NCBI GenBank assembly: GCA_030141605.1
Contig: JAQGDQ010000008.1
Coordinates: 992,001 to 1,056,000, forward strand
Direction of reading: 5' to 3'
Length of the DNA: 64,000 nucleotides
Source: Tubiluchus corallicola
Taxonomy: Eukaryota; Animalia; Priapulida
Positions 25,801 through 34,155 of the stretch are shown in pieces. The notes under the pieces are model-generated. The model saw nothing but the letters and a program-made list of their open reading frames with translations, was not told where the DNA came from and did no database searches. A program made the translations under genes and the position numbers. The number at the start of each line of letters is the position of its first letter. Position 1 is the stretch's first letter.

Positions 25801-28800
25801 GAACAATATATCTAATAAACGCATGGAGGCATATAAATTGCAAAGTCTCCACAGCGATACAATCCCAGGTTTTCTATTTTCTAGAGACCTATGCTAGCCA
25901 CAGAGGCACACTGATTTTTCAGCTTTAGAAATTTACTTTGTAAGCTACTAGCGGGTACAAAATGAAAATAGTCAGACTCTTTGTATTTTCAGATTATTAC
26001 TTATTTTTTTCTGTAAATTTGCAATATGATTTGATTTTGTAGGATTAAACATCATTTTACAACTTCATCTAATTCAAACTTGTTTTTACTTGCTTTTCAC
26101 ACATTTTACTCATATTCTTTCTAAACAAAGCAACCTATCAGTTAACTATCATATTTAGATATTAAGATGCAATGGGTGCATACTCATTTCCCTTTTACTC
26201 ATCCCTCATGGGAGTTGGAAATTTACTGGAACAATGATTGGATGGAAGTTCTAGGCTGTGGGATAATGGAGCAGAAACTGTTGCAGTCAGGTAAACTTAA
26301 AAGCTAACTTTATTTTCATTGTTATAGTAATACTTTTTGTAGTTGACAACGTCAGCATCGTAACAGATTATTGTTTTTGCATATGGTTGGTGTTAATATC
26401 TTATGCAGTGCATGTGCCGCACTAATATCACCAATATAAAATTGCTGCAAGTATATCAGGTACTCTTAAAATGAAAGTTAAAAGTTAATAACATCATTTG
26501 GCCTTGTTCTGTTAGTTCAGTAAACTGCTGTAAGAGTGGTTTGAATTCATCTGTGAAATTTAAAACTCTTTATCATTAAACATGAAAAGCAGTGATGTAC
26601 AGGAAATGAAAATCTAAATTATTGTGAACTATTAATTATTATTTTTTATGTGGTCTGATACAATATCTTTCTTCACGATTAAGTTTAATTTTTTAAGATG
26701 AGAAAAACACTCAGAGGTGTCTCGGTCATTGTCGGATCTGAAAATGCCTAACTTCAGCAAGTTAAATAGCAGAGTTAGTACAGTAAATTCAACTGCTCAG
26801 AGTGAGTTTTCAACCCATCTGTCATTCTTCTGTTCCCTGACCAGCATTGGCGTCACTTAATTTCAATTGCAAACTGCACACCATGATAACTTAGCTAATA
26901 ATATTTGATTTTTAGGAGAAATGTTTAAGTCATACACAAAATTTTTTTGTCTATAGCTGGTGCAGGCAGTAAAATTGGATGGGCGTTTGGTCTGGGATTG
27001 GATAGATTAGCGATGCTGCTGTACAACATTCCAGACATTCGTCTACTCTGGAGTAAGGACACTGGCTTCTTGTCGCAGTTTGAATTTGAAAACTCGCGTC
27101 GCAAAATGCACTACAAAGTAAGAGATTCAAAAGTTGCAGCTTGAGTTTATATTTTATACAAATCACCTTAAAAAGCTCAAATTGCCCTTAATAAGCTCTT
27201 TAAGGTGCTACATTAAAACACAGGACTATTGTAACTAATTTAGTGGAAGCTTCGTGCAATGTTCTTGTTGAAGTGAATGATGCCTTGGCTATCACCAAGA
27301 ATTTCACAGATAGGAAGCCCGAAAGAAAATGCTGGATTTGTAAGTAACCGCTGTGCGTCTAAGAATGCTCAGGGTAAAAATGTGAGGCAGCTAAATGGGA
27401 ACTATGACCAAATATTCGTCATGAAACAGTAATTTTATCTTTTGTTTTGAAGTACCATAAAGTACCATGAGAGTACATGAAAATATCCTATATTAATATA
27501 CAGTATCAAGTTTTCTTCCGAACGTGTTCATTAAAGAAAAAAATAATTTTTTATTCTGATTTTTAAGATTTTAACTCGTCTTGGTTTAAAATGCACTTTT
27601 ATTACTTATAATATCTGCTTGTTGCTTTTAACTGTTTCTTGTTTATTTTATTTATAATAGCATAGAAACATAATTAACAGTAAATGATCGTGCAATTAGC
27701 ATTGATGTTACTCTTGGGTGCAATTTTCCAGCAGCAGACTTCTCAACCTTAAGAGAAAGTAAATCTGTAGATTTTTCATAAAAATTATAAAAAATCTGGA
27801 GACTCCTTTAGAAACCTGGAGATTTTGCATCATAAATATAAATCTAGCTTGTCGCCACTGTGACACAGAACCCTTTCTCGAAAAAAGTTAAACAGATGTA
27901 GATAAATTTTAAAACAGTTTTGTAGTAACTTTGTTATAGTAAAATGTCACACGTTTGTCTAAATTTGATTGCTGATCATGGTCATTTTCAATGCAAAATG
28001 AGCTTACTTAAGAGGCTGCTTGATGTGGCAAAACTCTAAAACTGGTTCATGGAAGAAGGTTTCACATTCCGTTTAGTTTTATTCAGCAAAGTGAAAATTT
28101 ACTGATCTTTTTAATCACTATCAGAAAGCAAAGATGTACCAGACCGTCAGAAATAAGTTAAAATCGTGAGACTTACGGTAAAACCACAAGAATTGAGAGG
28201 TCTGCAGCCATGTGAATCCTTTACATGTTTCATATTGATGAAAAAGCAGAAAAACTCTGGAAATCTTGATAAAATTTGCGTAATCAAATTTCTGAGCTAG
28301 CATGTATATCATTATCGTGAGTTTAACCTGATGTTATGACTAGTTTGTGCATTTATACAGGACAGCATTTATGGTAATAGCTCTTTAAAAATTATAATTG
28401 GCATTTGGTTTAATAGGTTGCATGACTTTTTGTCTTTGACAACCAACATGAAAACTCATTGGTTTTTAATTGTTGTTTAAATTAAATGCTTACAAATGCT
28501 ATGAATTCCCATGAAAGCACTGCAACTAAAAACTGTCAACTAGGGTTTGATTTTTTATTTATTTCTTCAGTAATAAGTAATTAAAAAAAATTATAAGTAA
28601 TCGTGGACTTATGACCGCAATCAGTTCTGGCAGATTTGCTGTAAGACGACTTGGACACAAGTAGGATGTATGTTCAAGTTGACCCGTATGTACATCTACA
28701 CGTAAAATGTTGTTTGTGTACAAGCACTAACTATGGCGGCACCTATAAAACCATTTATCGAAACAGATAGTGATTTAAAATTAGTTTGCTTAATAAATAG

Positions 28801-32000: not shown

Positions 32001-34155
32001 TAGAAAATTCAGTTACAATAGAGTAAGCTTTGTCTAATAAACCTCAAAGTGTGTTAAATCAATAAAATTTCAAAACTAGTGAAAAATTTGCAAAATACAA
32101 AAGTTACATAGCTAGCATTAGTGTGTTTGAAAGTGTCAGCTTGGTATAAAAAATGTTTAGTACTTGATATATGTATATGCAATTCACTCCATTGCCAAAA
32201 ATTTGCAGTAATTTGTTTCACTATGGTATTTTTTACATAACCGTAAATGTACTAGTACTAGTTACCTGACAGATGGCCAGCTATTAACATGACTGTAGTA
32301 GTATTAGCGTTGCTTGAAATCTGAATTTTACAATAAGATTGCACATAGCTACACATGAAAATGCAGTGATCTTGTATGCTGATTAGAAGACAATGCCTGC
32401 ACAATAAATCAAACTTGAGGAAGCTATGAAGTGATTAATAAACTGTAATCACTAACCTGGCTCAGGGGCAGGTCTGGACAAAACCAAAAACCCATTGCTT
32501 TTGGGTTAAGAGGTCAAACATCAAATTTCTGTCCGTGCAATATCGAATTGAATGAAGCTATAATTGCCAGACTTGGCCCAGGGGTAGGTTTTAGCAAGAT
32601 CTTGGAACCCATTGCTGTTGGTTCAAATGTTAAAGGACAAATTTAAAAAAATGTCAATAATGTTTGCCTACAGTAATGCTGCTGAAGCTGTTATCCTCGG
32701 TCTCCCTTGATCTTGTTTGGAGCAATTTGTATAAACAATTTTTTCATCAACAGTTCGACTAATAATAATCAGATTAGGGTTGTAAAGTAAATATGATGTC
32801 GGTAAAGTTCTGTATAACTATTTTATTAATAACTTATCATGTACAAACTGCCTTGGACAAAAGCAACCTCCATAAAATATATAGAAGAATAGTCATTCAG
32901 TCTTAGGTGTTTGTTATAGTACCTGCTTTCTAATAGCATAGATGAAGGTAATATTCAAACAAATGCAAAGCTACTATGTGCACAAATCAGCAGTACAGAT
33001 ACAGCTGGTTAAACCAATTGAAACAGGGATCTGCCAGGACAGTGTTTTTATAGATAAACAATAAAAGTAATAAGATAAAAAATAAAGTAAAGATTGATAA
33101 TAAGCTAAACAATAGAGTAAAGAATGATAATTAGAGAAATTGAAAGGAAATATAATTAACAAAAATACGCGTGAGCACTTGTAATTTAATGCCTTGCAGT
33201 GACTGTGCTGGAGTTTGCAAGTTTTGTTATTCCAAAATAATGATTTTTAAAACAATACACATAGTATGTCTTTACTTGCCAATGTACATCATCTGTTAAT
33301 TTGTTCAATTGCAGCCTATTAGCCAATTTCCACAGTGCATTACTGACATGTCATTCTGGATACCCGAAATCTACGTAAGCAATGACTATTATGACATTGT
33401 CAGGACAATTGGAGGTGATATAATTGAACAGGTAATAGATCATGAAATCATTAATACTAATGCCGAAACAAACATCACAGATTTGTTGTCAGTATCTCGA
33501 TGTTTTTCCTGTTTACCCTGTACTTCTGATGTTATTTTCCTTTGTTATTCAATACCTCATGGTAACGGTCAAATGAGTTGCGGCCTCATGTATGTAACGT
33601 ACCAATTTTGATCAAATTTAACTATATTACGTGTTTCAGAATGGCGATATGCCATCACCAAGCATGCTTATAATAGTATATGATTGCAAGAGCACAGTGA
33701 TTTATAATAACTATAAATGAACAAAATTCACTACAGATTTAATGAGTGTTTCCTGCTCTTAGAACTGCTCACGTTCTAAGAACAACTTTTTAATAGTAAT
33801 CATCAACTTACAAAATCATTAAACTAAAACAATTTTTTGGTAGTCTAGGATAGAAGCATGTGGACCTCACAGAGTTGCTTGTAAAATAAAATGGGTACCA
33901 CGTAAAACCTACCTGAATTTATACAATAGGATACATGCATACACTAAGGTCCCAGTACAGCAAGGATTTATTGCAGTATTGTTCCAGGTGAAACTAATAG
34001 ATACGTTTGTGCATCCGAAGACGCAGAGGACCAGCCACTGTTATAGGATCACGTATCGACACATGGAAAAAACTTTGGAACAGCAAGAAGTGAACAAACT
34101 TCATGGTAGGATTGCAGATGAAGCAGCTAAACAACTAGGAGTTGAAATTAGATGA
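22810..34155 (+). CDS. FARS2: Mitochondrial phenylalanyl-tRNA synthetase, 487 aa, 7 coding exons
   Basis: Exons 22810-23440, 24728-24816, 25179-25344, 26159-26290, 26957-27117, 33315-33431, 33988-34155; all GT-AG and phase-consistent (1464 nt). Motifs [58 protein letters not shown]-terminal anticodon-binding domain ([15 protein letters not shown]). Confidence 0.95.
23850..24631. mobile_element. Probable PIF/Harbinger-type non-autonomous element in a FARS2 intron
   Basis: Imperfect TIR TGTTTACATGATCAGTTTT / AAAACTGATCTTCTAAACA. Superfamily is a guess from TIR style. Confidence 0.5.
29007..29050. repeat. (CA)n microsatellite
   Basis: Seen directly. Other microsatellites: (CT)n ~13653-13672, (TG)n ~22488-22520, (ACAAT)n ~41207-41250. 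Confidence 0.95.
29448..29505 (+). promoter_or_regulatory. Candidate nkd proximal promoter
   Basis: CpG-rich patch with ACAGATGGCAGCG, a perfect CRE palindrome TGACGTCA (29477-29484) and CCAAT (29491), about 220 bp upstream of the ATG. Confidence 0.45.
29711..31150 (+). CDS. nkd: Naked cuticle homolog (Wnt/Dishevelled antagonist), 479 aa, intronless
   Basis: N-myristoylation start MGKFPS, EFX domain [38 protein letters not shown], conserved [18 protein letters not shown] motif, His-rich C-terminus. AATAAA at 31208. Confidence 0.93.
   Translation: MGKFPSKHDPVDCYVVNYTHVNVASHEEFTGAASEKDVEKDLSEQCGASNDFNTATCLTSSNSLCGKESVMKERQGFADDKYPLRVVLPPEPEGSEGAKVVEDDHLAESLKLEKVCQKTNKDNGKQKLTNFGSFACGGQVEWQFTIYDIDGGGKVTKQDMRGLIHSIYDAIGKGMKLPKSGSQTLNIRVSLSPNSVEENGHHRRKRHDDEVSHSQPLNDLSANGINKPHYKVKSEKKAARSNFMEVHVNVDKHDKIHKEKHKSMIVVSSSECLANDMQTEIRPGNNRDNVFSESADRRSHYLDLAGIENYSSRFQENMPPANDHKTVEVKLVQKDHSSSKDSQEDNGKQYDLNMPSKRFLKLLEGQPSHNSTVQEHKPKVHKPKQKKTSTKVKKPRRKTAQSQKQNDWQHTSPPPTHQHHKHKKHNLSPSMDQVAQWLDKEFGNKEDISKPGTIIIHKHEHHHHHEHHHHHHYHHYHEL
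32440..32650. repeat. Degenerate dispersed repeat shared with ~55-300
   Basis: Both regions contain GGTCTG(A/G)...AAACCCATTGCTTT..GG.TTAAG.GG.TCAAAC modules. Confidence 0.55.

What the first reader, a model, noticed from the sequence alone, without database searches (positions are those of the whole stretch)
27118..33314. Intronless naked cuticle nested on the SAME strand inside a FARS2 intron
Seen: the 6.2-kb intron separating the FARS2 catalytic domain from its anticodon-binding domain holds a full 479-aa nkd ORF with its own promoter-like patch and AATAAA (31208). Known: nested genes are more often antisense, vertebrate NKD1/2 and fly nkd have introns, and nkd is a Wnt-induced feedback inhibitor. 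Inference: FARS2 pre-mRNA must read through the nkd polyA site. Premature cleavage would give a PheRS ending ...[12 protein letters not shown] without the anticodon-binding domain. Wnt-driven nkd transcription could therefore modulate mitochondrial translation capacity in cis.
Basis: partly seen in the sequence, partly recalled or inferred. Interest (0 to 1): 0.8.

Follow-up and report, generated by a model that had tools for sequence, protein, structure and literature searches.

The report
Intron-free Wnt inhibitor inside FARS2 intron
In an animal that is probably a priapulid worm, a complete, intron-free gene for the Wnt-pathway inhibitor naked cuticle lies inside an intron of a mitochondrial tRNA-charging gene and points the same way; it is likely a working reverse-transcribed copy, a known kind of arrangement, and nothing here shows that it controls mitochondrial protein synthesis.

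Summary
The nesting is real in this sequence. FARS2 is an intact seven-exon gene (487 aa). Its intron 5 (27118-33314, at the same position as human intron 5) holds a 479-aa naked cuticle frame with every family motif and no intron, although mollusc and scorpion isoforms show splice junctions. FARS2 groups with Priapulus (100/99). A relative's likely-RNA contigs cover nkd's leader, CDS and 3' end, with mostly synonymous changes, so the gene is likely expressed and selected. The layout is a known type: 28.7% of fly nestings are same-strand and 71.5% of those are intronless, and mouse H13/Mcts2 shows the proposed interference. The Wnt-to-mitochondria coupling has no support here: AATAAA is at background frequency, the RNA runs past 31208, TCF sites are not enriched, and FARS2 loss is recessive. 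More interesting is a pattern: an intronless Ras sits in the last intron of DCTD 22 kb away, and an unreviewed note of this scan reports intronless CEP290 inside PLPBP in the same genome. nkd and FARS2 share a chromosome in 9 of 10 spiralian large-scaffold assemblies; nesting was seen in none that could be judged.

The parts
22810..23440 (+). FARS2 coding exon 1 (targeting peptide and start of catalytic domain)
24728..24816 (+). FARS2 coding exon 2
25179..25344 (+). FARS2 coding exon 3
   Evidence: spliced to exon 4 in run X2
26159..26290 (+). FARS2 coding exon 4 (not among ORFs of 100 aa or more)
   Evidence: both flanking joints seen in run X2
26957..27117 (+). FARS2 coding exon 5 (end of catalytic domain and linker)
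27118..33314 (+). FARS2 intron 5, 6197 bp, GT-AG, phase 0; same position as human intron 5 (after residue 355)
   Evidence: human exon 5 ends at residue 355 and Pro361 is in exon 6
27142..27144 (+). In-frame TGA met if intron 5 is retained; gives a 401-aa FARS2 without anticodon-binding domain, whichever intronic poly(A) site is used
   Evidence: sequence
27212..27217 (+). ATTAAA with the most GU-rich downstream stretch of the 13 hexamers in the intron; candidate upstream host poly(A) site (inferred)
28792..28797 (+). AATAAA upstream of the nkd promoter patch; second candidate host poly(A) site (inferred)
29230..29236 (+). Single CTTTGAT TCF-type site; no Helper-type site found in 29001-29720; not above chance
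29450..29521 (+). Promoter-like patch: CRE palindrome TGACGTCA at 29477, CCAAT at 29491; lies just upstream of the first RNA-covered base
29522..29710 (+). nkd 5' leader, covered unspliced from 29522 to 29681 by an X2 contig (16 differences, 1 gap); holds 7 upstream ATGs
29711..31150 (+). naked cuticle ORF, 479 aa, single exon: myristoylation-type N-terminus, EFX domain (about 30092-30286), HYLDLAG motif, His-rich C-terminus
31208..31213 (+). AATAAA 58 bases after the nkd stop; possible but unproven poly(A) signal; RNA of a relative continues past it
33315..33431 (+). FARS2 coding exon 6 (first part of anticodon-binding domain)
33988..34155 (+). FARS2 coding exon 7 with stop codon
   Evidence: partly covered by X2
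6896..7456 (-). Second case in the window: intronless Ras coding sequence inside the 6731-bp last intron (954-7684) of DCTD, antisense

Best explanation
A complete, intron-free naked cuticle gene lies on the same strand inside intron 5 of FARS2 in a probable priapulid; it is likely a processed (reverse-transcribed) copy that is likely transcribed from its own promoter, and FARS2 transcripts likely read through it and splice it out most of the time. Shown: the nesting, the intact frames, the lack of coding introns at junctions that other animals splice, RNA-like contigs of a relative over both genes, and mostly synonymous change. Inferred: a cDNA of nkd mRNA entered, or replaced the gene that then moved into, this ancient intron; the CRE/CCAAT patch starts a transcript near 29520; the lack of splice sites in nkd is what makes same-strand nesting tolerable, since it offers FARS2 nothing to mis-splice into. 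The protein would act like other Nkd proteins, as a membrane-anchored Dishevelled-binding damper of Wnt signalling (from family knowledge). Where nkd is strongly transcribed, some FARS2 polymerases would stop early, probably upstream of the nkd promoter as at H13/Mcts2, giving a 401-aa enzyme without its anticodon-binding domain; this is most likely a tolerated cost, not a control circuit.
For: Gene model and intron. Family identity. Isoform pairs mark junctions after the first 8 residues and within the PL[RQ]-VxLPP block in Haliotis, Gigantopelta, Patella and Centruroides; the window frame crosses both unbroken. Neighbouring genes keep their introns (FARS2 6 introns, DCTD, an SDR gene, a SAM-domain gene), so the loss is gene-specific. 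Run X2 is spliced at two FARS2 introns and covers nkd at 29522-29681, 30101-30510, 30884-31078 and 31145-31264. Of 14 coding differences that one search listed (of 45 in those contigs) 8 are synonymous against 21% expected, P=0.004, all 6 replacements lie in the variable linker, and the one coding gap is 3 bases. Codon-position GC is like that of FARS2. Same-strand nestings are 28.7% in D. melanogaster and 71.5% of them are intronless (PMC5174743). A second intronless nested gene (Ras in DCTD) lies in the same window.
Against: No poly(A) remnant (no run of 7 A until 32645) and no convincing target-site duplication, so retroposition rests on intron loss alone. nkd and FARS2 share a chromosome in 9 of 10 spiralian large-scaffold assemblies, which a randomly inserted retrocopy would not be expected to reproduce. 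X2 is only guessed to be RNA, is contigs only, is 5-10% diverged from the window, and has no contig across the exon 5/6 junction or over 29682-30100; whether nkd is nested in that relative is unknown. Seven upstream ATGs in the leader are many for a well-translated mRNA. No genome was held, so a parent copy could not be sought.
Confidence: 0.7

Rival explanations
1. Regulatory coupling: Wnt induces nkd, nkd transcription truncates FARS2 in cis, and mitochondrial translation falls in Wnt-active cells.
For: Nested Mcts2 transcription drives intronic polyadenylation and termination of H13 in sense-sense orientation (PMC13309782). Any stop in intron 5 removes the whole anticodon-binding domain. 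One CTTTGAT site lies 290 bases upstream of the first RNA-covered base.
Against: TCF-type sites are not enriched (2 seen, 2.7 expected) and no Helper-type site was found near the promoter, whereas fly nkd enhancers rely on paired HMG and Helper sites (PMC4154663). At H13/Mcts2, silencing the nested gene did not change total full-length host mRNA. FARS2 disease is recessive with unaffected carrier parents (PMC11572740). Fly data read nesting as mostly neutral or slightly deleterious (PMC5174743).
Confidence: 0.08
2. Origin variant, compatible with the best reading: nkd lost its introns in place by cDNA gene conversion, kept its ancestral promoter, and was moved into FARS2 by a DNA-level rearrangement within the same chromosome.
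For: Same chromosome-length molecule for nkd and FARS2 in 9 of 10 spiralian assemblies. In flies 75% of pairs that later nested were already on one chromosome (PMC5174743). No poly(A) or target-site marks; a promoter-like patch is present.
Against: The linkage was seen in spiralians, not in scalidophorans. Where positional-looking locus tags exist the genes are 743 and 1449 loci apart, unlike the 10.8-kb median in flies. A second intronless nested gene nearby fits repeated retroposition more simply.
Confidence: 0.3
3. Copy-number variant, compatible with the best reading: this is an extra retrocopy, and an intron-bearing parent nkd elsewhere still does the Wnt feedback job.
For: Most retrocopies coexist with a parent (general knowledge). 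The protein is divergent, with a short deletion at the start of the EFX domain. One DNA contig over 30613-31877 has depth 52.5 against 8.8-18.5 for five other long pieces.
Against: Divergence from the relative is mostly synonymous. No second, closer nkd appeared among 166 representatives (none at E<=1e-30), though this clade is barely sampled. Contig depth is not copy number and another piece has 54.9.
Confidence: 0.35
4. nkd has no promoter of its own and is made from the FARS2 promoter, by splicing a host 5' exon to an acceptor upstream of nkd (Taf9/Ak6-like) or from processed read-through RNA.
Against: The X2 leader contig starts at 29522 at its first letter, just behind the CRE/CCAAT patch, and no joint into the nkd region is listed. 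The two AG sites inside the open frame before the ATG are in phases 1 and 2, so the phase-0 exon 5 donor cannot fuse FARS2 to nkd in frame (sequence). A host 5' exon would have to skip five coding exons.
Confidence: 0.1
5. Assembly artefact: nkd was joined into the FARS2 intron by chimeric reads.
For: Uneven DNA depth in X1 (bins from 0.8 to 85 outside high-copy repeats) looks like amplified DNA, which is prone to local chimeras (inference); no X1 contig bridges an exon and nkd; a 97%-identical 179-base tandem copy sits at the FARS2 3' end.
Against: It needs two false joins that leave both splice sites and all seven exons in order. X1 has depth in 30 of 30 bins, none of the 15 joints shown (48 more not shown) lies in intron 5, and one X1 contig runs from the nkd CDS 727 bases into downstream intron with no substituted letter. 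Intron 5 has no match elsewhere in the window.
Confidence: 0.05

Closest known systems
Mouse H13/Mcts2 (and Herc3/Nap1l5) host-retrogene pairs (PMC13309782: abstract, introduction, first part of results and passages read; PMC3467052: search listing only)
   Same: A retro-derived gene with its own promoter inside a host intron in sense-sense orientation; any host termination in that intron truncates the host protein.
   Different: There the switch is an imprinted CpG island and interference is measured; here there is no CpG island (o/e about 0.6), no measured truncation, the host is an essential tRNA synthetase and the guest a Wnt inhibitor.
Same-strand nested genes of Drosophila (PMC5174743: passages read)
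   Same: Small intronless internal gene in a long host intron; same strand in 28.7% of nestings, intronless in 71.5% of those.
   Different: Fly internal genes are typically young duplicates; this one is a conserved developmental regulator that may be the only copy (untested).
Orphan retrogenes that replaced their parents (PMC3548309: abstract read)
   Same: Intron-free copy of a normally multi-exon conserved gene under purifying selection.
   Different: Loss of the parent is not shown here; nkd is not mentioned in the abstract seen.
Naked cuticle family (fly Nkd, vertebrate NKD1/2; closest hits Lineus, Patella, Haliotis, with one block best matched by the millipede Chamberlinius)
   Same: All four conserved blocks present and in order.
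   Different: Single coding exon; 6-9 residues missing before the EFX core; at most about 35% identity to any known Nkd; Wnt inducibility unknown.

Membership tests
Naked cuticle (Nkd) | N-terminal myristoylation-type motif (Gly2, Ser6, Lys7) | tested here: met
   MGKFPSK aligns with the homologues' N-termini; the consensus itself is recalled
Naked cuticle (Nkd) | EFX domain with EF-hand-like loop | tested here: met
   Residues about 128-192, 40-46% identity in the ten best local matches, invariant E141, F144, T145, Y147, D148, G153, T156, D159; short deletion before the core; no Pfam family at E<=0.1
Naked cuticle (Nkd) | Central RRx[HY]YLDLAG motif and His-rich C-terminus | tested here: met
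Naked cuticle (Nkd) | Binds Dishevelled and dampens Wnt signalling | not tested
   no complex prediction was run; inferred from family knowledge
Naked cuticle (Nkd) | Transcription induced by Wnt through TCF sites | tested here: inconclusive
   2 CTTTGWW-type sites on both strands in 27118-29710, 2.7 expected; no Helper-type site in 29001-29720; induction needs an experiment
Nested gene, same strand | Lies wholly inside one intron of an intact host gene | tested here: met
Nested gene, same strand | Own transcript, separate from the host | tested here: inconclusive
   X2 contigs cover leader, CDS and 3' end with no joint to FARS2 listed, but contigs cannot show starts or strand
Retrogene | Loss of introns that orthologues have | tested here: met
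   junctions inferred from isoform pairs in three mollusc genera and a scorpion are crossed unbroken; genomic exon maps of the orthologues were not seen
Retrogene | Poly(A) remnant and target-site duplication | tested here: not met
   such marks erode with age, so this lowers but does not exclude retroposition
Retrogene | Inserted away from a parent locus (parent present, or lost if orphan) | not testable with these tools
   no genome held; same-chromosome linkage in spiralians leaves the route open
H13/Mcts2-type interfering pair | Nested transcription causes host intronic polyadenylation or termination | not testable with these tools
   only contigs of one relative were available
   no such joint in X2; in-frame fusion from exon 5 is excluded by phase; cover is fragmentary

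The most novel reading that the evidence does not exclude
This priapulid-like lineage went through a wave of retro-replacement in which core signalling and cilia genes (nkd, Ras, CEP290) lost their intron-bearing parents and now survive only as intron-free copies parked in introns of housekeeping enzymes (FARS2, DCTD, PLPBP). For nkd this would have cut the gene off from its ancestral TCF enhancers and turned the textbook Wnt negative-feedback loop into a CRE/CCAAT-driven damper, with FARS2 elongation and nkd initiation competing on one template.
Probability: 0.25. Interest if true: 0.7.

Novelty: new member of a known kind. Interest (0 to 1): 0.38.

Why it matters
As a single locus it adds an unreported case to a known class: my searches found no paper holding FARS2, nkd and intron (0 papers), none on an intronless naked cuticle gene (2 listed, both unrelated by title) and none on priapulid nkd (1 listed, unrelated). 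It matters more as part of a possible genome-wide pattern. Priapulids are used as slowly evolving models of the ancestral ecdysozoan (own knowledge); if their Wnt-feedback, Ras and cilia genes are orphan retrogenes in housekeeping introns, that picture needs a caveat, and the locus offers a natural test of whether a feedback inhibitor stays Wnt-inducible after leaving its enhancers, and of how an essential host tolerates a same-strand guest outside mammals and flies.

Tried and rejected
Whole-genome search for a parent nkd: no genome held. RNA holders: no listed holder is on record as RNA; X1 behaves as DNA (no spliced joint, repeat-level depth) and X2 is a guessed RNA run of a relative. No X2 contig covers exon 6 or the exon 5/6 junction, FARS2 exons 1-2, or 29682-30100 and 30511-30883; these holes say nothing either way. 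Contig depths were not used to rank the two genes. Pfam gave no family for nkd. My first six-exon FARS2 model missed exon 4 and was off by one base at several junctions; corrected. A first reading of the organism as a spiralian, from the best nkd hits, was dropped after the FARS2 trees and the millipede-like nkd block. A Priapulus nkd was not found: I looked up names for 17 nkd-type proteins among the 150 listed representatives, so nesting in Priapulus caudatus is untested; its FARS2 model lies on a 29,447-base contig and lacks the last part. Vertebrates were left out of the chromosome tally because they have two or three nkd paralogues. A FARS2-nkd fusion protein was rejected by phase. No target-site duplication or poly(A) tract. 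No Rfam match in the intron. A search for nkd as an annelid Wnt target gave 0 papers. Gene scans covered 150 of 158 and 145 of 204 stop-free frames of 45 aa or more outside 22800-34200; no gene was found between Ras and FARS2. No structure or complex was predicted. Supplements were not read.

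
Full report
Observation. The window holds an intact FARS2 gene on the + strand. Seven coding exons (22810-23440, 24728-24816, 25179-25344, 26159-26290, 26957-27117, 33315-33431, 33988-34155) join through six GT-AG introns into 487 codons with no internal stop, 85% identical to the unnamed protein P0122 and 63% to Haliotis FARS2, with no gap at the exon 5/6 junction. Intron 5 is 6197 bases against 362-1287 for the other five. 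It is phase 0 and precedes Pro394, five residues before the proline that matches human Pro361; human exon 5 ends at residue 355 (PMC11572740, passages) and the anticodon-binding domain is 359-451 (PMC5734183, passages). The intron position is therefore old and nkd came into it, not the reverse. Inside it lies a 479-aa frame, 29711-31150, far beyond chance (maximum 170 codons in 200 resamples). It is a naked cuticle protein: 158 hits, best E 2.9e-37, with the N-terminal motif, EFX domain, HYLDLAG motif and His-rich tail in order.

Organism. The best nkd hits are nemerteans and molluscs at about 30% identity, but a 30-row maximum-likelihood tree puts the window's FARS2 and P0122 beside Priapulus caudatus at 100/99 (FastTree on 76 rows agrees at 99), and one nkd block is best matched by a millipede. 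A scalidophoran, probably a priapulid, is the likely source; this rests on one gene. No close nkd relative is in the protein libraries (none at E<=1e-30 among 166).

Is it intronless and alive? Annotated isoform pairs differ at the end of the first 8 residues (Haliotis, Gigantopelta, Patella) and within the PL[RQ]-VxLPP block (Gigantopelta, Haliotis, Patella, Centruroides), which marks splice junctions shared across protostomes. The window's frame crosses both places unbroken, while FARS2, DCTD, an SDR gene and a SAM-domain gene nearby keep introns. Run X2, guessed to be RNA of a relative, is spliced at FARS2 introns 3 and 4 and has contigs over 29522-29681, 30101-30510, 30884-31078 and 31145-31264; elsewhere in FARS2 introns it has only short pieces with loose ends. 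Differences are 16 of 292 bases in FARS2 exons, 45 of 630 in nkd coding pieces and 16 of 160 in the leader. Of the 14 coding differences listed, 8 are synonymous (21% expected, P=0.004), the four in the EFX core all so, and the only coding gap is one codon. The leader contig begins 37 bases behind a CRE palindrome that occurs twice in 64 kb, and a CCAAT box. This fits an own promoter but contigs cannot prove a start. Against the retroposition label: no poly(A) tract and no target-site duplication.

Synteny. Using the length of the source molecule, nkd and FARS2 share a molecule in 9 of 10 spiralian assemblies where both lie on scaffolds above 20 Mb (Haliotis asinina, Gigantopelta, Littorina, Patella vulgata, P. 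caerulea, Biomphalaria, Sinanodonta, Pinctada, Tubulanus; not H. rufescens) and lie on different scaffolds in 10 of 10 fragmented invertebrate assemblies. Locus tags are 743 and 1449 apart in P. caerulea and Sinanodonta, if such tags follow position. So the two genes are old chromosome mates, and nesting was seen in none of the 13 assemblies that could be judged; the other 7 same-chromosome cases were not resolved to gene level. This keeps open a second route: intron loss in place followed by movement within the chromosome. In flies 75% of pairs that later nested were on one chromosome (PMC5174743, passages).

Assembly. No long reads or genome were held. The DNA run X1 has depth in 30 of 30 bins, none of the 15 joints shown falls in intron 5 (48 not shown), and one contig runs from the nkd CDS into downstream intron, but none bridges an exon and nkd. 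An artefact would need two false joins; I put it at 0.05.

Mechanism. The most likely reading is a processed nkd copy with its own promoter that FARS2 transcribes through and splices out. In D. melanogaster 71.3% of nestings are antisense, and intronless guests make up 71.5% of same-strand against 37% of opposite-strand cases, read as selection against mis-splicing. Interference is plausible: at mouse H13/Mcts2, transcription of a sense-nested retrogene drives host intronic polyadenylation and termination (PMC13309782; abstract, introduction, first part of results and passages). But there the site is upstream of the guest promoter and total full-length host mRNA did not change when the guest was silenced. 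Here the upstream candidates are ATTAAA 27212 and AATAAA 28792 among others, and all give the same 401-aa protein. AATAAA 31208 is one of 8 in the intron (8.7 expected), every FARS2 intron has such a hexamer, and X2 runs at least 51 bases past it. Wnt control is not evident: 2 TCF-type sites against 2.7 expected and no Helper-type site nearby, while fly nkd enhancers depend on HMG-Helper pairs (PMC4154663, passages). Human FARS2 disease is recessive with unaffected carriers. A real Wnt-to-mitochondria circuit is possible but I give it 0.08.

Wider pattern. The window holds a second case: the last DCTD intron (954-7684, GT-AG) contains a complete intronless Ras on the opposite strand. An unreviewed note of this scan describes an intronless CEP290 on the same strand inside PLPBP in the same genome (e1-10608720; not tested here). 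The scan has no other note on nkd-in-FARS2. Three conserved genes of this kind suggest repeated retroposition in this lineage, perhaps with loss of the parents as in orphan retrogenes (PMC3548309, abstract), but no genome-wide count or parent search was possible, and three cases picked for being odd are no rate.

Verdict. Observation confirmed; interpretation partly supported. A new member of a known kind, not found in print by searches (open-licence library only). Interest 0.38; the lineage-wide retro-replacement reading has probability about 0.25 and would deserve about 0.7.

Noticed in passing
window 6896-7456 (-) inside 954-7684: Complete intronless Ras coding sequence with CAAX end, nested antisense in the last intron of dCMP deaminase (DCTD; exons about 741-953 and from 7685, GT-AG). 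Residues 48 and 138 are Ala and Val where, from recall, Ras has Gly; no RNA was laid on it.
   Followed up: partly
window 34099-34274 and 34272-34450: Tandem duplication of 179 bases, 97% identical, covering the end of FARS2 exon 7 and the start of its 3' UTR; real or an assembly slip.
   Followed up: partly
window 19040-19158 (-): 5S rRNA gene or 5S-derived repeat (Rfam 85 bits); the surrounding 18268-19535 has depth above 20,000 in the DNA run X1.
   Followed up: no
window 35842-41526 (-): Multi-exon short-chain dehydrogenase gene facing FARS2 tail to tail, with a 668-codon LINE-type RT-RNase H frame (38134-40140, +) inside one of its introns.
   Followed up: no
window 49413-50075 (-): Exons of a small SAM-domain gene, resembling aveugle/SAMD10/12 from recall (weak Pfam SAM_2 hit).
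   Followed up: no
window 47789-48199 (+), 14354-14536 (+), 62361-62504 (+), 63805-63951 (-): DDE transposase remnant, RT fragment, an RNA pseudouridine synthase exon and a weak succinate dehydrogenase membrane-subunit hit.
   Followed up: no
window 29522-29710: Seven upstream ATGs in the RNA-covered nkd leader, two of them opening out-of-frame ORFs that overlap the main start; none of the listed differences in the relative removes one. Possible translational damping.
   Followed up: partly
window 30613-31877: One DNA contig of X1 has depth 52.5 against about 9-18 for most other long single-copy pieces: amplification bias or an identical extra copy of the nkd 3' half.
   Followed up: no
P0124 (Priapulus caudatus FARS2 model): The database model runs off-frame after the first half of exon 6 and lacks the Pfam anticodon-binding hit; its contig is 29,447 bases. 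Probably an annotation or assembly fault, worth a look for nkd.
   Followed up: no
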